Assembly: GCA_000004985.1 (NCBI GenBank)
Contig: GG739020.1
Length of the DNA stretch: 10,744 nt
DNA from: Naegleria gruberi
Lineage: Eukaryota
Strand: one strand, 5' to 3'
Shown here: positions 1 to 10,744 of the stretch, piece after piece
How positions within the stretch are numbered: the stretch's first letter is position 1
Layout of the letters: each line of letters starts with the position of its first letter
Translations under genes and position numbers: made by a program
The notes under the pieces: model-generated
Database searches by the model: none
What the model saw: only the letters and a program-made list of their open reading frames with translations
Told to the model about the DNA's origin: nothing

Positions 1-1301
1 ATATTTGAGAATGTAACATACTTAGCACAACAAGGATATTTTCTTATTAATTCTCGGGCAATGTCAACAGAGGATGAATTTTTCAAAATTAATTCGGCCA
101 TATCTTCATTCCATTCCACACCTTGATGTTGGATCATTTGCTTTATAAGGGCATGATCATTCAATACTGTAGTGAGATGATCAAGACTAAGATAGTTGGC
201 AACCAAAATATTCTTGTTCATTGCCTTTACAATAACCTGTTCATCCAATGTAATCTCTGTGGTGCCCATTAAAAAAGCTTTGTGTGAAATATCAAGAAGT
301 TTCAAAAGTTGTTCTTTCGAGGAAATCAAGTTTGAGTTGAGCAATTCAGATTCATTAACTTTGGAAGTGAGAATCGATTCAATTAAATTGGAATAGAATG
401 GGTAGCTTTTTTCAACCCAATAGATGGCTCTCCAGTCATTTGAAACAGATTTGAAGATGGAAAAGTGACTCTTTCTAATATTTTCACCAGCTCTTTGAAT
501 AGCCATCCCACTTGTGAATATGGAAGTCTCAAACAAATCCTGTCTATTTCTAAATTCTCTATTTAGGTAGTAAAATGAATCTCCGTTCAATTCTACGGCT
601 TTCTTTACAAAATCTTCATCTTGTCTCAGATTGAATGGAAGAAACTTGAAAGCAGCTCCATTATTTCTAATGGCTTCAAGAACAATATCTCGATTTTGAA
701 GAATATCTGGATGTGCGTAATAGAGAAATAATCCATTTTCCTTGACACGAGCTTTTATATATTCTGGATCATTTCGTAATTCATGTGAAATTTCTTCCAA
801 AGTGTCAATTTCACCGTGGTTAGTCTTAATCTTCTTTGTTTGCCTGTTTTTTGGTAGATCAGGAATAGAAAGACTTGAGTCATTATGATCTGAAGGGTTG
901 AGCATGAGTTTTGAATCACCCTGCCACCAATTTGCTCTGTTACATACGGCATCAGAAAGTGTTTCTCCCTTTCCAAAAATAAATATTCCCTCTGTTGAAA
1001 TAGGAGATTTAACAGCCCAAACAACAGATTTTGTAGGTCTTGTACAATATTCCAAAGGAATAATTAAGGAATTGGTTAAGGAAAATAATTGGTCCTCCTT
1101 GTACCATTCCAGGAACAATTTGGTTTGGTTGACAAAGGTACTCTTTAGGGGACCACTAAAGGTTGATAAATCAAGATGGACAACCACTGGATCCTGTTCT
1201 TCTTCTGTTGATGTCCTTGCTTCTTGTGATGGATTCATGATTCGTCTTGTTGTTTTGATTTTTTTTATAAATAAAATGGTTATTTGATGCTTGGCATACA
1301 T
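1..1301 (-). CDS. DUF4116-repeat protein, 3'-partial. The C-terminus lies beyond the window start. The longest ORF starts at the ATG at 1301..1299, and an in-frame alternative start is at 1238..1236.
   Basis: I translated the reverse strand by hand. The reading frame stays open from the ATG at 1301 (preceded in frame by a TAA at 1307..1305) to position 1, with no stop in about 433 codons. That is very unlikely by chance in AT-rich DNA. The translation begins MYAKHQITILFIKKIKTTRRIMNPSQEARTSTEEEQDPVVVHLDL. It contains ...ISHELRNDPEYIKARVKENGLFLYYAHPDILQNRDIVLEAIRNNGAAFKFLPFNLRQDEDFVKKAVELNGDSFYYLNREFRNRQDLF... and continues to ...DIARELIRKYPCCAKYVTFSN at the window edge. The ORF track omits it because there is no in-window stop. 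Its + strand entries 196..396 and 898..1287 and its minus entry 755..1024 are antisense or off-frame shadows of this gene. Confidence 0.85.
   Translation of the reverse strand, partial: MYAKHQITILFIKKIKTTRRIMNPSQEARTSTEEEQDPVVVHLDLSTFSGPLKSTFVNQTKLFLEWYKEDQLFSLTNSLIIPLEYCTRPTKSVVWAVKSPISTEGIFIFGKGETLSDAVCNRANWWQGDSKLMLNPSDHNDSSLSIPDLPKNRQTKKIKTNHGEIDTLEEISHELRNDPEYIKARVKENGLFLYYAHPDILQNRDIVLEAIRNNGAAFKFLPFNLRQDEDFVKKAVELNGDSFYYLNREFRNRQDLFETSIFTSGMAIQRAGENIRKSHFSIFKSVSNDWRAIYWVEKSYPFYSNLIESILTSKVNESELLNSNLISSKEQLLKLLDISHKAFLMGTTEITLDEQVIVKAMNKNILVANYLSLDHLTTVLNDHALIKQMIQHQGVEWNEDMAELILKNSSSVDIARELIRKYPCCAKYVTFSN
528..791 (-). other. Three tandem repeats of about 29 aa inside the CDS. The motif is ELRNDxE[VI]VLxA[VI][KR]xNGxA[LF]xY[AL], which matches the DUF4116 repeat signature as I recall it.
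   Basis: This covers residues about 150-237 of the translation. The pattern 'NG-hydrophobic-hydrophobic-x-Y' followed by 'ELRND/NLRQD/EFRNR' then 'hhhxAh+xNG' repeats with a period of about 29 aa. Downstream helical segments (DEQVIVKAMNKNILVANYLSLDHL...) look like degenerate additional copies. Confidence 0.6.
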
Positions 1302-2678: not shown

Positions 2679-2799
2679 GAATATTTAATTATTCTTTATT
2701 AAACTTCCACTTCTAATAATCACCATCACTAGTAATAAAATAAATATGAAATTACAACTATATTTCTTAATAACTTAACTGATAAATAATATGAATAAT

Positions 2800-3250
2800 G
2801 TTTAATAAGAGTTGTAGTATTGAATATCATGTTATTGTTTAATTGTTGATTTGTTGTTGAAGACAAAATTGATGGTTAGGAATTAAGATACTGTTGATAT
2901 TGTTGTTATTGTGTTTGATGACATCAATATTTTGCTTGTTGTTGTTTCATCATTCATTGTTGTTAGAATTTTGTTGAGTAGTTGTGGTAGTATTATTGTA
3001 AACAATAGGAGTAGTGGTTGTTGTTGAATTATTGAAGATGATGTTGTTCAACTACTGCTGTGATATTATTTTCATCCCGATATATTGTTGTTGTTGTGTT
3101 GAATGGTATTATTATTGTTAAATAAGGTTAAGGAAAAGTAAAGAGGTATTGGATGTTAATAATATTGTTGATGTGATATTGGAAGTAGTTTAAGTTAAAG
3201 GTAAGTTGTTCATAATTGACGTGTGGTTGTTTTTTTTTATTATGTTGGCG
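2800..3250 (+). repeat. GT-rich, C-depleted cryptic simple sequence. Interrupted (TTG)n/(GTT)n tracts, which read as (CAA)n on the minus strand.
   Basis: The + strand has only about 20 C in about 430 nt. There are repeated 'ttgttgttg' blocks at about 2848-2864, 2895-2912, 2935-2951, 2955-2970, 3016-3034, 3082-3106 and 3161-3175, and a T9 run at 3231-3239. No convincing ORF is present. The minus 3128..3334 ORF is low-complexity and rejected. Confidence 0.8.
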
Positions 3251-3313
3251 CCAAATAATCCTTAAGTTTCTTTTGTAAGCGAAAACCGTAGATACTGTAT
3301 AATAATGATAGAT

Positions 3314-3413
3314 GTTTATTATGGTGGCAACCATTATGAATATTTATAATGGTGGTTCATGATGTCTTAAAGTAACAACTATGATAAATATTTATAATGG
3401 TGGCTATGAATAG
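3314..3413. repeat. Cluster of three copies of the motif T(T/A)ATGGTGG, with AT-rich dyad-symmetric cores.
   Basis: 'tattatggtgg' lies at 3317-3327. 'tatgaatatttataatggtgg' lies at 3335-3355. 'tatgataaatatttataatggtgg' lies at 3380-3403. 'ccattatgaatatttataatgg' (3331-3352) is a 20/22 palindrome. Related copies are 'tatgaatggtgg' at 1332-1343 and 'taatggtg' at 3587-3594. Confidence 0.6.
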
Positions 3414-3664
3414 TCTAATACTATCACTTCAACAAAACACATGAAAATGCTTTATTCGATGAGTAGAGATTGAACATTAAGTTTATTTACTTTGATATTC
3501 ATAATTTCAACAGATACGTACCACTAAGAAGCTAGGACGAAAATATGGAAGAATAAAAACCACCTTATTGTGTTGTTGAATCATCTTAATGGTGAAACAG
3601 GGTGGAACCTGGTTTTAAGGATGTAATATTTTTGTTCTTCATAGCAAATAATGTAAATGGTTTA

Positions 3665-3880
3665 GTTTTCATATATTTTAGTCACCTTTCAGTAAGGTAA
3701 AGGGTGAAATGGGAAGTTCACATGGTCAACAATGAAAAGGAAATCCTGTAAAATGACCACTCAATGCAACTTTACCATAAGGTTCTACATCTTAAATAAT
3801 GTATGCGGTTCAATTTTCAGACATTTTGGTGAATATTCCATCTTTCAGTAAGGTAAAGAGTGATTTATCAAGGTTGACTT
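3665..3880 (+). repeat. Two-copy direct repeat spaced about 156 bp apart. The core is 'ctttcagtaaggtaaagRgtga' and it can form a short hairpin.
   Basis: Copy 1 is at 3686-3707 (ctttcagtaaggtaaagggtga) and copy 2 at 3842-3863 (ctttcagtaaggtaaagagtga), a 21/22 match. The flanks are also similar: 'ttttca.a.atttt.g' upstream and 'gggaag' downstream. In copy 1, 'tcaccttt' pairs with 'aaagg(g)tga' around the loop 'cagtaaggt'. Confidence 0.6.
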
Positions 3881-4376
3881 GGGAAGATTAGGAGGAAATC
3901 TTCAAATAGAAAACCACATCCTCTATCTACAAAAAATATATCAATCGAATGGAAATCAATAATACATCTCGAAAATATAATTTATTTTATGGTTTGAATT
4001 CTCTCCTTTAAACCTCTTTTAGTCAATTAAGACAATTAAGGATGATACTATAAGGAAAGTTACCAATCTCAAAATAAATGATAATATCATGTTATACATC
4101 TCAAATAGGGCGGTCTTTCTTCAAATTATATATTTTCATTTCAAGAAATACATCCGGTAGATAGTACATGGTGATATTTCAAGTGAATGGAAATCTGAAA
4201 GGTACAGAAACAACTCCATTTTCACTGAAATTGATATCATGATATATAGACACTCTAATTTGCATATGGTATCAATCTCATAAATAAATATTGGTTCAGT
4301 AGATGTCGAGATGTCAACTCTATCACTTTACTATAGACTTTTGACATGATATCATAGATTATTAACTCCAACTCAC

Positions 4377-4381
4377 TCATT
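4377..4381 (+). promoter_or_regulatory. Initiator-like element TCATT, 24 nt upstream of the ATG at 4403 that opens into the masked block.
   Basis: The TCA(+1)YW pattern is seen directly. It only means something if the host uses a parabasalid-type Inr, which is an inference. Confidence 0.25.
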
Positions 4382-4406
4382 TTACATACAATCAGTCTAG
4401 AAATGA

Positions 4407-7400
4407 NNNNNNNNNNNNNNNNNNNNNNNNNNNNNNNNNNNNNNNNNNNNNNNNNNNNNNNNNNNNNNNNNNNNNNNNNNNNNNNNNNNNNNNNNNNNNN
4501 NNNNNNNNNNNNNNNNNNNNNNNNNNNNNNNNNNNNNNNNNNNNNNNNNNNNNNNNNNNNNNNNNNNNNNNNNNNNNNNNNNNNNNNNNNNNNNNNNNNN
4601 NNNNNNNNNNNNNNNNNNNNNNNNNNNNNNNNNNNNNNNNNNNNNNNNNNNNNNNNNNNNNNNNNNNNNNNNNNNNNNNNNNNNNNNNNNNNNNNNNNNN
4701 NNNNNNNNNNNNNNNNNNNNNNNNNNNNNNNNNNNNNNNNNNNNNNNNNNNNNNNNNNNNNNNNNNNNNNNNNNNNNNNNNNNNNNNNNNNNNNNNNNNN
4801 NNNNNNNNNNNNNNNNNNNNNNNNNNNNNNNNNNNNNNNNNNNNNNNNNNNNNNNNNNNNNNNNNNNNNNNNNNNNNNNNNNNNNNNNNNNNNNNNNNNN
4901 NNNNNNNNNNNNNNNNNNNNNNNNNNNNNNNNNNNNNNNNNNNNNNNNNNNNNNNNNNNNNNNNNNNNNNNNNNNNNNNNNNNNNNNNNNNNNNNNNNNN
5001 NNNNNNNNNNNNNNNNNNNNNNNNNNNNNNNNNNNNNNNNNNNNNNNNNNNNNNNNNNNNNNNNNNNNNNNNNNNNNNNNNNNNNNNNNNNNNNNNNNNN
5101 NNNNNNNNNNNNNNNNNNNNNNNNNNNNNNNNNNNNNNNNNNNNNNNNNNNNNNNNNNNNNNNNNNNNNNNNNNNNNNNNNNNNNNNNNNNNNNNNNNNN
5201 NNNNNNNNNNNNNNNNNNNNNNNNNNNNNNNNNNNNNNNNNNNNNNNNNNNNNNNNNNNNNNNNNNNNNNNNNNNNNNNNNNNNNNNNNNNNNNNNNNNN
5301 NNNNNNNNNNNNNNNNNNNNNNNNNNNNNNNNNNNNNNNNNNNNNNNNNNNNNNNNNNNNNNNNNNNNNNNNNNNNNNNNNNNNNNNNNNNNNNNNNNNN
5401 NNNNNNNNNNNNNNNNNNNNNNNNNNNNNNNNNNNNNNNNNNNNNNNNNNNNNNNNNNNNNNNNNNNNNNNNNNNNNNNNNNNNNNNNNNNNNNNNNNNN
5501 NNNNNNNNNNNNNNNNNNNNNNNNNNNNNNNNNNNNNNNNNNNNNNNNNNNNNNNNNNNNNNNNNNNNNNNNNNNNNNNNNNNNNNNNNNNNNNNNNNNN
5601 NNNNNNNNNNNNNNNNNNNNNNNNNNNNNNNNNNNNNNNNNNNNNNNNNNNNNNNNNNNNNNNNNNNNNNNNNNNNNNNNNNNNNNNNNNNNNNNNNNNN
5701 NNNNNNNNNNNNNNNNNNNNNNNNNNNNNNNNNNNNNNNNNNNNNNNNNNNNNNNNNNNNNNNNNNNNNNNNNNNNNNNNNNNNNNNNNNNNNNNNNNNN
5801 NNNNNNNNNNNNNNNNNNNNNNNNNNNNNNNNNNNNNNNNNNNNNNNNNNNNNNNNNNNNNNNNNNNNNNNNNNNNNNNNNNNNNNNNNNNNNNNNNNNN
5901 NNNNNNNNNNNNNNNNNNNNNNNNNNNNNNNNNNNNNNNNNNNNNNNNNNNNNNNNNNNNNNNNNNNNNNNNNNNNNNNNNNNNNNNNNNNNNNNNNNNN
6001 NNNNNNNNNNNNNNNNNNNNNNNNNNNNNNNNNNNNNNNNNNNNNNNNNNNNNNNNNNNNNNNNNNNNNNNNNNNNNNNNNNNNNNNNNNNNNNNNNNNN
6101 NNNNNNNNNNNNNNNNNNNNNNNNNNNNNNNNNNNNNNNNNNNNNNNNNNNNNNNNNNNNNNNNNNNNNNNNNNNNNNNNNNNNNNNNNNNNNNNNNNNN
6201 NNNNNNNNNNNNNNNNNNNNNNNNNNNNNNNNNNNNNNNNNNNNNNNNNNNNNNNNNNNNNNNNNNNNNNNNNNNNNNNNNNNNNNNNNNNNNNNNNNNN
6301 NNNNNNNNNNNNNNNNNNNNNNNNNNNNNNNNNNNNNNNNNNNNNNNNNNNNNNNNNNNNNNNNNNNNNNNNNNNNNNNNNNNNNNNNNNNNNNNNNNNN
6401 NNNNNNNNNNNNNNNNNNNNNNNNNNNNNNNNNNNNNNNNNNNNNNNNNNNNNNNNNNNNNNNNNNNNNNNNNNNNNNNNNNNNNNNNNNNNNNNNNNNN
6501 NNNNNNNNNNNNNNNNNNNNNNNNNNNNNNNNNNNNNNNNNNNNNNNNNNNNNNNNNNNNNNNNNNNNNNNNNNNNNNNNNNNNNNNNNNNNNNNNNNNN
6601 NNNNNNNNNNNNNNNNNNNNNNNNNNNNNNNNNNNNNNNNNNNNNNNNNNNNNNNNNNNNNNNNNNNNNNNNNNNNNNNNNNNNNNNNNNNNNNNNNNNN
6701 NNNNNNNNNNNNNNNNNNNNNNNNNNNNNNNNNNNNNNNNNNNNNNNNNNNNNNNNNNNNNNNNNNNNNNNNNNNNNNNNNNNNNNNNNNNNNNNNNNNN
6801 NNNNNNNNNNNNNNNNNNNNNNNNNNNNNNNNNNNNNNNNNNNNNNNNNNNNNNNNNNNNNNNNNNNNNNNNNNNNNNNNNNNNNNNNNNNNNNNNNNNN
6901 NNNNNNNNNNNNNNNNNNNNNNNNNNNNNNNNNNNNNNNNNNNNNNNNNNNNNNNNNNNNNNNNNNNNNNNNNNNNNNNNNNNNNNNNNNNNNNNNNNNN
7001 NNNNNNNNNNNNNNNNNNNNNNNNNNNNNNNNNNNNNNNNNNNNNNNNNNNNNNNNNNNNNNNNNNNNNNNNNNNNNNNNNNNNNNNNNNNNNNNNNNNN
7101 NNNNNNNNNNNNNNNNNNNNNNNNNNNNNNNNNNNNNNNNNNNNNNNNNNNNNNNNNNNNNNNNNNNNNNNNNNNNNNNNNNNNNNNNNNNNNNNNNNNN
7201 NNNNNNNNNNNNNNNNNNNNNNNNNNNNNNNNNNNNNNNNNNNNNNNNNNNNNNNNNNNNNNNNNNNNNNNNNNNNNNNNNNNNNNNNNNNNNNNNNNNN
7301 NNNNNNNNNNNNNNNNNNNNNNNNNNNNNNNNNNNNNNNNNNNNNNNNNNNNNNNNNNNNNNNNNNNNNNNNNNNNNNNNNNNNNNNNNNNNNNNNNNNN

Positions 7401-9149
7401 NNNNNNNNNNNNNNNNNNNNNNNNNNNNNNNNNNNNNNNNNNNNNNNNNNNNNNNNNNNNNNNNNNNNNNNNNNNNNNNNNNNNNNNNNNNNNNNNNNNN
7501 NNNNNNNNNNNNNNNNNNNNNNNNNNNNNNNNNNNNNNNNNNNNNNNNNNNNNNNNNNNNNNNNNNNNNNNNNNNNNNNNNNNNNNNNNNNNNNNNNNNN
7601 NNNNNNNNNNNNNNNNNNNNNNNNNNNNNNNNNNNNNNNNNNNNNNNNNNNNNNNNNNNNNNNNNNNNNNNNNNNNNNNNNNNNNNNNNNNNNNNNNNNN
7701 NNNNNNNNNNNNNNNNNNNNNNNNNNNNNNNNNNNNNNNNNNNNNNNNNNNNNNNNNNNNNNNNNNNNNNNNNNNNNNNNNNNNNNNNNNNNNNNNNNNN
7801 NNNNNNNNNNNNNNNNNNNNNNNNNNNNNNNNNNNNNNNNNNNNNNNNNNNNNNNNNNNNNNNNNNNNNNNNNNNNNNNNNNNNNNNNNNNNNNNNNNNN
7901 NNNNNNNNNNNNNNNNNNNNNNNNNNNNNNNNNNNNNNNNNNNNNNNNNNNNNNNNNNNNNNNNNNNNNNNNNNNNNNNNNNNNNNNNNNNNNNNNNNNN
8001 NNNNNNNNNNNNNNNNNNNNNNNNNNNNNNNNNNNNNNNNNNNNNNNNNNNNNNNNNNNNNNNNNNNNNNNNNNNNNNNNNNNNNNNNNNNNNNNNNNNN
8101 NNNNNNNNNNNNNNNNNNNNNNNNNNNNNNNNNNNNNNNNNNNNNNNNNNNNNNNNNNNNNNNNNNNNNNNNNNNNNNNNNNNNNNNNNNNNNNNNNNNN
8201 NNNNNNNNNNNNNNNNNNNNNNNNNNNNNNNNNNNNNNNNNNNNNNNNNNNNNNNNNNNNNNNNNNNNNNNNNNNNNNNNNNNNNNNNNNNNNNNNNNNN
8301 NNNNNNNNNNNNNNNNNNNNNNNNNNNNNNNNNNNNNNNNNNNNNNNNNNNNNNNNNNNNNNNNNNNNNNNNNNNNNNNNNNNNNNNNNNNNNNNNNNNN
8401 NNNNNNNNNNNNNNNNNNNNNNNNNNNNNNNNNNNNNNNNNNNNNNNNNNNNNNNNNNNNNNNNNNNNNNNNNNNNNNNNNNNNNNNNNNNNNNNNNNNN
8501 NNNNNNNNNNNNNNNNNNNNNNNNNNNNNNNNNNNNNNNNNNNNNNNNNNNNNNNNNNNNNNNNNNNNNNNNNNNNNNNNNNNNNNNNNNNNNNNNNNNN
8601 NNNNNNNNNNNNNNNNNNNNNNNNNNNNNNNNNNNNNNNNNNNNNNNNNNNNNNNNNNNNNNNNNNNNNNNNNNNNNNNNNNNNNNNNNNNNNNNNNNNN
8701 NNNNNNNNNNNNNNNNNNNNNNNNNNNNNNNNNNNNNNNNNNNNNNNNNNNNNNNNNNNNNNNNNNNNNNNNNNNNNNNNNNNNNNNNNNNNNNNNNNNN
8801 NNNNNNNNNNNNNNNNNNNNNNNNNNNNNNNNNNNNNNNNNNNNNNNNNNNNNNNNNNNNNNNNNNNNNNNNNNNNNNNNNNNNNNNNNNNNNNNNNNNN
8901 NNNNNNNNNNNNNNNNNNNNNNNNNNNNNNNNNNNNNNNNNNNNNNNNNNNNNNNNNNNNNNNNNNNNNNNNNNNNNNNNNNNNNNNNNNNNNNNNNNNN
9001 NNNNNNNNNNNNNNNNNNNNNNNNNNNNNNNNNNNNNNNNNNNNNNNNNNNNNNNNNNNNNNNNNNNNNNNNNNNNNNNNNNNNNNNNNNNNNNNNNNNN
9101 NNNNNNNNNNNNNNNNNNNNNNNNNNNNNNNNNNNNNNNNNNNNNNNNN
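4407..9149. other. Hard-masked block of 4743 N. It probably covers most of one large + strand ORF, as described in the findings.
   Basis: Contiguous run of n. The + frame defined by the ATG at 4403 is the same frame as the 128-codon open segment at 9150-9535. Confidence 0.99.
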
Positions 9150-9535
9150 TATTACTAGCCGAAGTAATTTATACTGAATATATGCAAAACCAAGCCTGTA
9201 ATTCACTTTCAATAGTTTTTCATGCCATGAATAAGGAGTCTTTACCAATTACCAATTCAAAATACCATGATGTGGTATTCATAGAAAATCGAAATGAAAT
9301 TGCACAACTGTTTGGGGAAGAATTTGCTTCTGCCATTTCTGTTTTTCTTTCCAAGAAGCACAACACAGATACTGAGAAATCAACAAATAATCAGATTTCC
9401 TGTCAGTGTAAGATAGGTAGCATTCATTGCTTTAATTGTGTTTGTGCAAAGCAGGGTCAAAAATGCTCGTCCTCATGTCTTTGTAAAGGAGATTGTGAAC
9501 GAACCAAATATGGATTAAACTCAAGCTATCAATAA
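9150..9535 (+). CDS. C-terminal 128 codons of an ORF emerging from the masked block. It ends in a 9-Cys CXC (tesmin/TSO1/LIN54-like) zinc-cluster motif, with a TAA stop at 9533-9535. It may be the end of one 1710-codon ORF starting at 4403, or a separate short gene starting at the ATG at 9182.
   Basis: The frame is open from the block edge to the stop. The translation reads ...LLAEVIYTEYMQNQACNSLSIVFHAMNKESLPITNSKYHDVVFIENRNEIAQLFGEEFASAISVFLSKKHNTDTEKSTNNQISCQCKIGSIHCFNCVCAKQGQKCSSSCLCKGDCERTKYGLNSSYQ*. The Cys spacing is C-x-C-x6-C-x2-C-x-C-x6-C-x3-C-x-C-x3-C. The stop is followed by A, giving TAAA. The opposite-strand ORF (minus, start 9248) shows no recognisable motif. Confidence 0.55.
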
Positions 9536-9595
9536 ACTAAAATAACCTGTCTCAATACTATGCGGAATTTGCCTTAATAATTTTCTGAGCATAAG

Positions 9596-9684
9596 GGGCG
9601 GTTAGCTCAGCGGTAGAGCACCGGATTGCAAAGATATTTGCAGCAGACATCCGATGGTCACGTGTTCGATCCACGTACCACCCT
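9596..9684 (+). tRNA. tRNA-Cys, anticodon GCA at 9628-9630, intron-containing, with a U73 discriminator.
   Basis: The acceptor is GGGCGGT/ACCACCC with one C4-A69 mismatch. The D-arm is GCTC-AGCGGTA-GAGC and is canonical (A box TAGCTCAGCGGTAGAGC). The anticodon stem is CCGGA/TCCGA with a C27-A43 mismatch, and the loop is TTGCAA+A. The variable loop is TGGTC. The T-arm is ACGTG-TTCGATC-CACGT (B box GTTCGATCC). The discriminator T at 9684 matches the known Cys identity element U73. The gene is 89 nt, made of a 72-nt mature body and a 17-nt intron. Confidence 0.75.
9632..9648 (+). other. 17-nt tRNA intron at the canonical 37/38 position. The boundary is ambiguous by 1 nt.
   Basis: The sequence is agatatttgcagcagac. 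Its internal TGC (9639-9641) is complementary to the anticodon GCA. That is the typical anticodon-intron pairing of eukaryotic pre-tRNAs. Confidence 0.6.
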
Positions 9685-9687
9685 TCC

Positions 9688-9691
9688 TTTT
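9688..9691 (+). terminator. Pol III T-run (TTTT), 4 nt downstream of the tRNA.
   Basis: The sequence '...accaccc t tcc tttt ag' is read directly. Confidence 0.5.
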
Positions 9692-10023
9692 AGATATTGC
9701 ACCTAACGGTAATTATTGATGCTTAGAGCTCGCTTAATGTGAGATTTCATTCCAAAATAAATCCTACCCATATATAACCAGCTTTGCCTAATTGTACACT
9801 AACTTTAATGAAATCCACCCTAGAACTTTTTTTCACCCGAGATTGTTGTCTGCCTGGATCTTTAGGCGAGTAAAGTGGGCGGACGTATCCAATAAGGATG
9901 CACCATCTCAGAAAGTGGACATTTAAATTCCAAGATTTTAACAATCATAATTAAAACGTTGGAAAAATCAACGATTATCAAGCAATCCAATTCGAGTGAA
10001 AAAAAAAGTGCAACAATAATAGT

Positions 10024-10744
10024 ATGGACTGTTTCGACATTGATGCTTATCTGAAACGTATTGGTTTGAATTCACGTATCCATGTGGAAGAGGAATTTAA
10101 GTCAATTTCGTATGCATTGTTGCATGCCATTGTGTGGAATCATGCAACTCATATTCCATTCGAAAATCTGGCAACTATTTATCCAGATGAATATCGTATA
10201 GTTTCCGATTCAAATTCTAAAATCAAAGTATCTCTGGATCCAAATGATATTTTCAGGAAAATGGTGTTAAATGATCGTGGAGGTTTTTGTTTCGAACAGA
10301 ATCTTCTATTGGCGAGAGCTTTGAGAGAATTTGGCTTTACTGTCAAACCCATTGGAGCCAGAGGTGTTAATCGCTTGGCAGAAGTAGATCCAATCTCTGG
10401 ATTGCCAGTTGGTCCTTTCACTCACTTGGCTCTATTGGTTGATTGCCAAGATGGAAACACTTATTTGGTGGATAATGGTTTAGGATGGGGTGGTATGCCA
10501 AGATCTCCTCTCCCACTTGTCAATGGAAGTGAAAAGACAGAAAGTACTGGAGAAGTATTTCGATTGGTATTGGGAACTATTTCACAAAGCACAAAATTAA
10601 ATTTTGACAAATGGGGTTGCTTTAGATTTCAAACAGGTGTCAATACAGATCATCAAGATATAAAAGATGGGAAAGTTGTTAGTGGACAGTGGTTTCTCCA
10701 ATATAAAAACAAGGCAGAATCTGACTGGTGGGATATTATGCATT
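10024..10744 (+). CDS. NAT: Arylamine N-acetyltransferase (NAT family), 5'-complete and 3'-partial. 240 codons are in the window and about 50 are missing.
   Basis: The ATG at 10024 is preceded by an in-frame TGA at 9997-9999. The translation starts MDCFDIDAYLKRIGLNSRIHVEEEFKSISYALLHAIVWNHATHIPFENLATIY... It continues ...VLNDRGGFCFEQNLLLARAL...GPFTHLALLVDCQDGNTYLVDNGLGWGG... and reaches ...WFLQYKNKAESDWWDIMH at the window edge. This aligns with NAT hallmarks. The N-terminal 'DxxAYxxRIG' and 'PFENL' are present. The catalytic Cys lies in RGGFCFEQN, with the codon tgt at 10288-10290. The His lies in THLALLV and the Asp in VDNGLG. For comparison, human NAT has RGGWCLQVN, IHLLLQV and VDAGFG. The ORF track lacks this gene because it runs off the window. 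The minus 10179..10421 ORF is its antisense shadow. Confidence 0.9.
   Translation, partial: MDCFDIDAYLKRIGLNSRIHVEEEFKSISYALLHAIVWNHATHIPFENLATIYPDEYRIVSDSNSKIKVSLDPNDIFRKMVLNDRGGFCFEQNLLLARALREFGFTVKPIGARGVNRLAEVDPISGLPVGPFTHLALLVDCQDGNTYLVDNGLGWGGMPRSPLPLVNGSEKTESTGEVFRLVLGTISQSTKLNFDKWGCFRFQTGVNTDHQDIKDGKVVSGQWFLQYKNKAESDWWDIMH

What the first reader, a model, noticed from the sequence alone, without database searches (positions are those of the whole stretch)
4377..9536. One probable 1710-codon gene hidden under the 4.7-kb mask, ending in a CXC zinc-cluster
This is seen in the sequence. The ATG at 4403 is preceded by a TCATT initiator-like pentamer 24 nt upstream. It defines exactly the same reading frame as the stop-free 128-codon segment that exits the mask at 9150 and terminates at 9533. 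The prior chance of that frame match is 1 in 3. The tail carries a 9-cysteine C-x-C...C-x-C...C-x-C cluster whose spacing matches the tesmin/TSO1/LIN54 and E(z)-type CXC domain. That domain family is established knowledge. The stop overlaps a TAAA, and GAATT lies 29 nt downstream. A 1700-aa protein with a C-terminal CXC module next to a tRNA gene could be a chromatin or DNA-binding factor, or the large protein of a mobile element. I know of no well-described family of that size with this C-terminal module in protists. The sequence that would decide this is masked.
Basis: partly seen in the sequence, partly recalled or inferred. Interest (0 to 1): 0.7.

Follow-up and report, generated by a model that had tools for sequence, protein, structure and literature searches.

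The report
Gene fragment beside an assembly gap
The "1710-codon hidden gene" comes from counting codons across an unsequenced gap in a small Naegleria gruberi scaffold; all that is really there is the last 128 codons of an unannotated gene, ending in a nine-cysteine cluster that looks like a CXC zinc domain but fails its defining tests.

Summary
The window is one whole 10,744-nt Naegleria gruberi scaffold. Both flanking genes are 100% identical to NCBI "predicted protein, partial [Naegleria gruberi]" entries whose contig length is 10,744. That assembly has 1,977 contigs in 784 scaffolds, so the two N runs are almost certainly scaffold gaps of estimated size, not masks. The frame match between ATG 4403 and stop 9533 therefore carries no information, and the ATG sits 4 nt from a contig end.

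One part is real. The stretch 9150-9535 (+) is coding by codon usage, GC by codon position and an open frame seen in 1 of 5,000 shuffles. It is unannotated and has no detectable homologue in any collection searched.

Its nine-cysteine cluster has the 5+4 layout of CXC/pre-SET domains. However, Pfam TCR scores 9.0 bits against a cut-off of 23.5. Shuffles that keep only the cysteine positions score as well or better. Both published CXC consensus patterns fail, on the Cys3-Cys4 spacing and the signature Asn. Structure prediction is uninformative.

The gene's length, start and function are unknown. Nothing supports a mobile element. Interest is low.

The parts
4403..4406 (+). ATGA, the last four bases of the middle contig; the proposed start codon
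   Evidence: It is 'open to the gap' only because it lies 4 nt from the contig end. The preceding contig 2679-4406 has no coding-like window free of stops. This is not evidence of a gene start.
4407..9149 (.). Run of 4,743 N: a scaffold gap of estimated size (unsequenced), not a mask over known sequence
   Evidence: The window length equals the 10,744-nt contig recorded for NCBI N. gruberi proteins EFC35802.1 and EFC35803.1. The N. gruberi assembly has 1,977 contigs in 784 scaffolds (PMC6125883 Table 1). Annotated genes and low-complexity tracts elsewhere in the window are not masked.
9150..9535 (+). 3'-terminal coding fragment (frame 9152; 127 codons plus TAA at 9533-9535) of an unannotated gene whose 5' part lies in the gap
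   Evidence: Translation. Codon log-likelihood is +0.13 bits per codon in frame and negative in the other five frames; GC1>GC2>GC3 as in the flanking genes; 1 of 5,000 shuffles is open. Best 300-nt windows are stop-free and score 0.17-0.20. No annotated protein contains it.
9401..9496 (+). Nine-cysteine cluster CQCKIGSIHCFNCVCAKQGQKCSSSCLCKGDC (tail residues 84-115); putative zinc-binding module
   Evidence: The only Pfam match is TCR PF03638, at 9.0 bits and E = 2.3. The published consensus tests fail.
9595..9687 (+). tRNA-Cys(GCA) gene with a 17-nt intron at the canonical 37/38 position, 60 nt downstream of the stop codon
   Evidence: Rfam RF00005, 50.4 bits, 9596-9684. ARAGORN with introns allowed. 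Window 9579-9691 is 94.7% identical to L003, a related metagenome contig that also carries an NAT gene.
2679..4406 (.). Middle contig of the scaffold: non-coding, with low-complexity and repeated sequence
   Evidence: No stop-free coding-like window; the best 300-nt windows contain 4 stops. The longest open frame is 71 codons.
3..1238 (-). Flanking gene: DUF4116 protein, running off the left end of the scaffold
   Evidence: Pfam PF13475, E = 3e-27. It is 100% identical to EFC35803.1 and 85% identical to EFC41128.1, which sits on a 508,457-nt scaffold.
10024..10743 (+). Flanking gene: arylamine N-acetyltransferase, running off the right end of the scaffold
   Evidence: Pfam PF00797, E = 3e-27. 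It is 100% identical to EFC35802.1 and 99% (237/240) identical to EFC41126.1, on the same 508,457-nt scaffold.

Best explanation
The window is a complete small scaffold of the Naegleria gruberi NEG-M Sanger draft. It consists of three ~1.4-1.7-kb contigs joined across two gaps that are written as runs of N of estimated length. It is a diverged second copy (alternative haplotype or recent duplicate) of a DUF4116 ... NAT locus on a 508-kb scaffold.

The '1710-codon ORF' is an arithmetical artefact of reading through the second gap. What exists is the 3' end (at least 128 codons) of a real, unannotated, lineage-restricted protein-coding gene. Its 5' part was never assembled, so its length and start are unknown. 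Most likely it is an ordinary gene of a few hundred codons rather than one filling the whole gap.

Its last ~45 residues carry nine cysteines in a 5+4 arrangement. I infer that these chelate zinc and fold the C-terminus into a small metal-cluster module, comparable to the Zn3Cys9 clusters of CXC/pre-SET domains or to a metallothionein-like M3Cys9 cluster. By analogy such a module could bind DNA or a partner protein.

Shown: the organism, the scaffold identity, the coding character of the tail, the cysteine pattern and the tRNA neighbour. Inferred: that the Ns are a gap, the zinc binding, and any function.
For: Organism and scaffold. Both flanking genes are 100% identical to N. gruberi 'partial' proteins whose only contig is 10,744 nt long, the length of the window. 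Their accessions, EFC35802 and EFC35803, are consecutive, and no protein in the 5.8-billion set contains the tail, so no gene model spans the gap.

Gap. The N. gruberi assembly has 1,977 contigs in 784 scaffolds and 35% GC (PMC6125883 Table 1). Unmasked GC in the window is 0.34-0.38.

Second copy. NAT is 99% and DUF4116 85% identical to proteins on one 508,457-nt scaffold. N. gruberi is reported to be heterozygous (PMC9928731).

Coding tail..

Cysteine cluster. The nine Cys form a 5+4 layout. That is the layout described for Zn3Cys9 CXC/pre-SET clusters, and the same paper notes M3Cys9 clusters in metallothioneins (PMC3447885).
Against: I could not open the GenBank scaffold record, so I have not seen its gap features. 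That the Ns are gaps is a strong inference, not a reading. Nothing excludes that the tail's gene is long. Zinc binding is inferred from the cysteine pattern alone. AlphaFold2 without an alignment gave pLDDT 41 for the tail and 54 for the cluster, and there were no fold matches. With no homologue anywhere, conservation cannot be used, and a recently decayed pseudogene is not excluded.
Confidence: 0.72

Rival explanations
1. One reading: a single gene of about 1,700 codons starts at or near ATG 4403, fills the whole N run and ends in a true CXC (tesmin/E(z)-type) DNA-binding domain.
For: The tail is open right up to the gap edge at 9150. The stated coordinates are in frame. Pfam TCR is the only family that matches the cluster at all.
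Against: The frame match depends on an estimated gap length. The ATG is 4 nt from a contig end, and the 1.7 kb before it is non-coding. TCR scores 9.0 bits against a 23.5 cut-off, no better than shuffles that keep only the Cys positions. Both published consensus patterns fail and the signature Asn is missing. There is no second CXC copy in the 83 residues upstream.
Confidence: 0.04
2. The tail is a separate short gene of about 117 codons starting at ATG 9182, or just inside the gap. It would encode a small cysteine-rich, possibly metallothionein-like, metal-binding protein.
For: An in-frame ATG lies at 9182. Three CxC motifs and nine Cys within 32 residues recall M3Cys9 metallothionein clusters, which are mentioned in PMC3447885.
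Against: The frame stays open for the 10 codons upstream of 9182, up to the gap. Stop-free windows starting at 9152-9164 already score as coding. No gene caller in any collection produced this 117-aa product. About 80 non-Cys-rich residues precede the cluster.
Confidence: 0.15
3. The gap hides a repeated mobile element, inserted in only one haplotype about 60 nt upstream of the tRNA-Cys gene. The tail would be the C-terminus of its large protein, and the repeat would explain why assembly failed.
For: The small, gap-ridden scaffold duplicates a locus on a large scaffold. 1.7 kb of non-coding repeat-like DNA lies next to the gap. The tRNA gene is close by. Naegleria genomes carry DIRS, Gypsy, LINE, piggyBac and EnSpm elements (PMC6125883 Table 3).
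Against: No other copy of the tail exists in the annotated N. gruberi proteome or in any collection searched. No poly(A), LTR or terminal repeat lies in the 60 nt between the stop and the tRNA. No transposase, RT or integrase sequence is visible. The tRNA-Cys/NAT adjacency also occurs in a related contig (L003), so the tRNA is an old neighbour, not evidence of targeting.
Confidence: 0.07
4. The open frame 9150-9535 is a chance ORF or a dead pseudogene remnant and makes no functional protein.
For: It is not annotated and has no homologue anywhere. It lies on a low-coverage scaffold.
Against: An equally long open frame arose in 1 of 5,000 shuffles. The codon-usage score and the GC1>GC2>GC3 pattern match real N. 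gruberi genes and are frame-specific.
Confidence: 0.05

Closest known systems
CXC superfamily Zn3Cys9 domains (tesmin/TSO1/LIN54 CXC, MSL2 CXC, SUV39 and E(z) pre-SET)
   Same: Nine cysteines within about 32 residues, arranged as a 5-Cys loop (CxC...C...CxC) followed by a 4-Cys loop (C...CxC...C). The second half, CxC-x6-C-x3-CxC-x3-C, differs from the tesmin spacing by one residue. Pfam TCR is the only family that aligns to it.
   Different: The score is far below the Pfam cut-off (9.0 against 23.5 bits) and is explained by Cys positions alone. Cys3-Cys4 spacing is 2 residues where the superfamily consensus needs 4-7. The tesmin Tyr before Cys4 is absent. The invariant Asn two residues after Cys9 is Arg (C-E-R). 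There is one copy, not two. There is no PDB sequence hit and no predicted fold.
Metallothionein-type M3Cys9 clusters
   Same: Three CxC motifs and nine Cys in a short Lys/Ser/Gly-rich stretch. M3Cys9 stoichiometry is known for metallothionein domains (mentioned in PMC3447885).
   Different: The cluster sits at the end of a protein of at least 127 residues whose preceding 83 residues have one Cys. The cluster also contains His, Phe, Ile and Leu. No Pfam metallothionein family matched at E <= 10. The comparison rests on the pattern only.
tRNA-gene-targeted retroelements (Dictyostelium TRE5/DGLT-A, yeast Ty3); from my own knowledge, not tested against their sequences
   Same: A large reading frame was proposed ending a few tens of nucleotides upstream of a tRNA gene.
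   Different: No element sequence is visible. There is no poly(A) or LTR between the stop and the tRNA, and the tail has no second copy. The tRNA-NAT adjacency is also found in a relative.

Membership tests
Tesmin/TSO1-like CXC domain (Pfam PF03638, TCR) | Profile score at or above the Pfam gathering cut-off (23.5 bits) | tested here: not met
   9.0 bits and E = 2.3 for the last 50 residues. No hit at all for the 117- or 127-residue tail. Ten full shuffles gave no TCR hit, but two hit other Cys-rich families at 10.2-12.6 bits. Of ten shuffles keeping only the Cys positions, three hit TCR at 9.7-12.3 bits.
Tesmin/TSO1-like CXC domain (Pfam PF03638, TCR) | Consensus CXCX4CX3YCXCX6CX3CXCX2C (as quoted in PMC8892154 and the CPP-family papers) | tested here: not met
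   The regular expression does not match. Observed: CxC-x6-C-x2-CxC-x6-C-x3-CxC-x3-C, with no Tyr before Cys4.
Tesmin/TSO1-like CXC domain (Pfam PF03638, TCR) | Mostly two CXC copies separated by 40-60 residues (PMC3447885) | tested here: not met
   The 83 visible residues upstream of the cluster contain a single Cys. Anything further upstream lies in the gap.
CXC superfamily (Zheng et al. 2012, PMC3447885) | Nine metal ligands in two loops of five and four Cys within about 50 residues | tested here: met
   Cys at tail residues 84, 86, 93, 96, 98 | 105, 109, 111, 115.
CXC superfamily (Zheng et al. 2012, PMC3447885) | Spacing consensus CX[C/H]X2-13CX4-7CXCX5-60CX2-4CX1-2CX2-15C | tested here: not met
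   The regular expression fails with and without the terminal Asn. The Cys3-Cys4 spacer is 2 residues (F-N) where 4-7 are required.
CXC superfamily (Zheng et al. 2012, PMC3447885) | Signature Asn at the second position after Cys-9 (C-X-N) | tested here: not met
   The sequence after Cys115 is E-R.
CXC superfamily (Zheng et al. 2012, PMC3447885) | Compact fold enclosing a Zn3Cys9 cluster | tested here: inconclusive
CXC superfamily (Zheng et al. 2012, PMC3447885) | Binds three zinc ions | not testable with these tools
   This needs metal analysis of recombinant protein.
Single 1710-codon ORF 4403-9535 | Continuous known sequence with no in-frame stop between start and stop codon | not testable with these tools
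   Bases 4407-9149 are N in the source record. N. gruberi DNA could not be retrieved: look-ups of its proteins found nothing on record.
Single 1710-codon ORF 4403-9535 | Coding signal and a credible start at the 5' side | tested here: not met
   Only 4 bases are visible. The upstream contig is non-coding. The motifs cited occur at chance frequency.
Mobile element (tRNA-targeted retroelement or DNA transposon) | Transposase, integrase or reverse-transcriptase domain | not testable with these tools
   Any such domain would lie in the gap. The visible 127 residues have no Pfam domain.
Mobile element (tRNA-targeted retroelement or DNA transposon) | Multiple copies in the genome | tested here: not met
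   No protein in the 5.8-billion set, which includes the N. gruberi proteome, shares the tail. There were none among 1.84 billion representatives. Caveat: only annotated proteins were searched, not N. gruberi DNA.
Mobile element (tRNA-targeted retroelement or DNA transposon) | Element terminus (poly(A), LTR or TIR) between the ORF end and the target | tested here: not met
   The 59 nt between the stop and the tRNA (9536-9594) hold no poly(A) run or repeat arm.

The most novel reading that the evidence does not exclude
The gap hides a large gene or mobile element present on only one haplotype, lying about 60 nt upstream of the tRNA-Cys gene. Its protein would end in a deviant, so far unclassified member of the CXC/pre-SET Zn3Cys9 superfamily, with a shortened Cys3-Cys4 loop and Arg in place of the signature Asn, used for DNA or chromatin targeting in a heterolobosean.
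Probability: 0.05. Interest if true: 0.55.

Novelty: not a real feature. Interest (0 to 1): 0.1.

Why it matters
Runs of N in a draft eukaryotic scaffold are usually unsequenced gaps of estimated size, so no reading-frame argument can be carried across them. Later stages of this scan should check that before scoring "hidden" ORFs.

The real residue is minor. It is one unannotated, orphan N. gruberi gene fragment with a nine-cysteine C-terminus. If that cluster proved to be a zinc cluster, it would be a slightly deviant relative of CXC/pre-SET modules. That is worth a line in a re-annotation but opens no question.

Tried and rejected
- Homology searches with the 127-aa tail all found nothing. 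Searched: the word-indexed 5.8-billion protein set, exhaustive phmmer over 1.84 billion representatives, JGI metagenome contigs and IMG/VR viral contigs by back-translated patterns plus tblastn, and PDB sequences with the whole tail and with the 50-aa cluster at E <= 10 (the only hits were an irrelevant CFAM166A at E = 1.1).
- I tried to recover unmasked DNA by looking up the N. gruberi proteins P0001, P0028 and P0030 in the contig index. None is on record, so the 508-kb allelic scaffold and the protein EFC41127.1 could not be read.
- Synteny in relatives. L001 and L002 (NAT 65% identical) have an unrelated upstream gene and no tRNA. L003 (NAT 66% identical) has the tRNA-Cys, but the contig ends there.
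- Structure prediction of the tail and of the cluster alone gave low confidence. Fold searches returned nothing.
- Default ARAGORN missed the tRNA. Rfam and ARAGORN with introns found it.
- The Cell 2010 genome paper and its 2011 review are not held in the library. Assembly statistics were taken from PMC6125883 instead.
- I considered whether the Ns are a repeat or annotation mask and rejected it. The annotated genes and the low-complexity (TTG)n tract are left unmasked, and the N runs are counted within the record length of 10,744.
Full report
**What the window is**

The two genes at the window's ends identify it. The N-acetyltransferase (NAT) fragment at 10024-10743 (+) (Pfam PF00797) is 100% identical to EFC35802.1/XP_002668546.1. 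The DUF4116 gene at 3-1238 (-) (PF13475) is 100% identical to EFC35803.1/XP_002668547.1. Both are named 'predicted protein, partial [Naegleria gruberi]', and both sit on a single contig of 10,744 nt, exactly the window length. The window is therefore one entire small scaffold of the N. gruberi NEG-M draft.

That assembly consists of 1,977 contigs in 784 scaffolds, with 35% GC (PMC6125883 Table 1). It thus contains roughly 1,200 intra-scaffold gaps. Unmasked GC in the window is 0.34-0.38. The scaffold is three short contigs (1-1374, 2679-4406, 9150-10744) joined by N runs of 1,304 and 4,743.

Annotated genes and a low-complexity (TTG)n-like tract are not masked, and the Ns are counted in the record length. 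I conclude that the Ns are scaffold gaps whose lengths are estimates from paired reads. The point about estimation is established practice for Sanger whole-genome assemblies and comes from my own knowledge. I could not open the record itself to read its gap features.

**Consequence for the finding**

ATG is at 4403, TCATT at 4377, the open frame runs 9152-9532, TAA is at 9533, and 5130 = 3 x 1710. But a frame relation across a gap of estimated length means nothing.

ATG 4403 is 'open to the gap' only because it is 4 nt from the contig end. The other five ATGs in the last 200 nt all meet a stop. The 1.7-kb contig that ends there has no coding-like window free of stops. Its best 300-nt windows carry 4 stops, and its longest open frame is 71 codons.

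The small motifs occur at chance frequency: TCATT once per 336 nt, GAATT once per 391 nt, TAAA once per 109 nt. The initiator and TAAA logic belongs to Trichomonas (my own knowledge), not to a heterolobosean. The mechanical ORF list also shows an equally meaningless 1,618-codon 'ORF' on the minus strand across the same Ns.

**What is real**

The stretch 9150-9535 is coding.
- Its codon-usage log-likelihood, trained on the two flanking genes, is +0.13 bits per codon in frame and negative in the other five frames.
- The two flanking genes give +0.10 and +0.16 when each is scored with the other's codon table.
- GC falls from codon position 1 to 3, as in those genes.
- Only 1 of 5,000 shuffles gives an open frame this long. 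The best stop-free 300-nt windows score 0.17-0.20.

It is not annotated. EFC35802 and EFC35803 are consecutive accessions, and no protein in the 5.8-billion set, which includes the N. gruberi proteome, shares words with it. It has no detectable homologue among 1.84 billion representatives, in JGI metagenome or IMG/VR contigs, or in PDB sequences. It is therefore the 3' end of an orphan, unannotated gene. How far that gene extends into the gap is unknown. An in-frame ATG at 9182 leaves a 117-codon gene as a possible minimum.

**The cysteine cluster**

Tail residues 84-115 (window 9401-9496) read CQCKIGSIHCFNCVCAKQGQKCSSSCLCKGDC. Membership fails wherever it could be tested:
- **Pfam.** TCR (PF03638) is the only family reported, at 9.0 bits and E = 2.3, against a cut-off of 23.5. 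It appears only when the 50-residue segment is scanned alone.
- **Shuffle controls.** Ten full shuffles never hit TCR, but two hit other Cys-rich families at 10.2-12.6 bits, so scores of this size are background. Of ten shuffles that keep the Cys positions and permute everything else, three hit TCR at 9.7-12.3 bits. That equals or beats the native sequence, so the non-Cys residues add nothing.
- **Tesmin consensus.** CXCX4CX3YCXCX6CX3CXCX2C does not match.
- **Superfamily consensus.** CX[C/H]X2-13CX4-7CXCX5-60CX2-4CX1-2CX2-15CXN does not match. Cys3-Cys4 are 2 residues apart instead of 4-7, and the signature Asn after Cys9 is Arg.
- **Copy number.** There is no second CXC copy in the 83 residues upstream.

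A metallothionein-like M3Cys9 cluster is an equally pattern-based alternative. My commitment is that the nine Cys most likely chelate zinc and fold the C-terminus into a small cluster module. That is an inference from the pattern, not a shown property.

**Surroundings**

A tRNA-Cys(GCA) gene with a 17-nt intron at position 37/38 lies at 9595-9687, 60 nt after the stop. Default ARAGORN missed it. The same tRNA, 94.7% identical over 114 nt, lies next to a 66%-identical NAT on a metagenome contig, L003, though on the opposite strand. The tRNA is therefore an old neighbour of NAT, not a sign of targeted insertion.

The scaffold duplicates a locus on a 508,457-nt scaffold. NAT there is 99% identical (EFC41126.1) and DUF4116 is 85% identical (EFC41128.1). 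This fits an alternative haplotype or recent duplicate in a genome reported to be heterozygous (PMC9928731). One accession, EFC41127.1, falls between the two and may be the counterpart gene. I could not retrieve it, and it does not contain this tail.

**Mobile-element idea**

In favour: a gap-ridden duplicate scaffold, 1.7 kb of repeat-like non-coding DNA and a nearby tRNA gene. Against: the tail has no second copy anywhere, there is no poly(A), LTR or TIR between the stop and the tRNA, and no transposase, RT or integrase sequence is visible. I give it about 7%.

**Verdict**

The headline feature, a 1710-codon gene under a mask, is not a real feature. It comes from counting codons through an assembly gap. 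The real remainder is an unannotated orphan gene fragment with a CXC-like but non-canonical nine-cysteine tail. Interest is low (0.1). The decisive data are outside these tools: the scaffold's gap annotation, the 508-kb allelic scaffold, long reads across the gap, and RNA-seq.

Noticed in passing
window 9595-9687 (+); L003:1-113 (-): tRNA-Cys(GCA) with a 17-nt intron at position 37/38. Default ARAGORN (no introns) missed it. Window 9579-9691 is 94.7% identical to the end of L003, a metagenome contig with a 66%-identical NAT, but there the tRNA is on the opposite strand relative to NAT. This suggests a local inversion between related Naegleria-like genomes.
   Followed up: partly
window 3-1238 (-) and 10024-10743 (+): The scaffold is a diverged second copy of a locus on a 508,457-nt N. 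gruberi scaffold. Divergence is very uneven: NAT is 99% identical at the protein level and DUF4116 only 85%, with most differences towards the DUF4116 N-terminus, the end nearest the gaps. It could be an alternative haplotype or a recent duplication. Accession EFC41127.1 lies between the two counterparts and could not be read.
   Followed up: partly
window 2679-4406: The 1.7-kb middle contig has no coding signal, which is unusual for this compact genome. It has a G/T-rich (TTG)n-like tract at about 2830-3180 (GC skew up to +0.6), imperfect direct repeats about 150 nt apart (3634-3707 and 3782-3863), and palindromic ATATTTATAATGGTGG units at 3319-3404. It may be degenerate repeat or element-derived DNA.
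   Followed up: partly
window 10024-10743 (+): The NCBI model for the NAT on this scaffold (EFC35802.1, 218 aa, partial) covers only 91% of the 240 in-window codons. The copy on the large scaffold (EFC41126.1) aligns from the ATG at 10024. The small-scaffold gene model therefore looks truncated.
   Followed up: no
window 4392-9248 (-): The mechanical ORF list reports a 1,618-codon 'ORF' on the minus strand through the same N run. This shows that any frame reads as open across Ns.
   Followed up: yes
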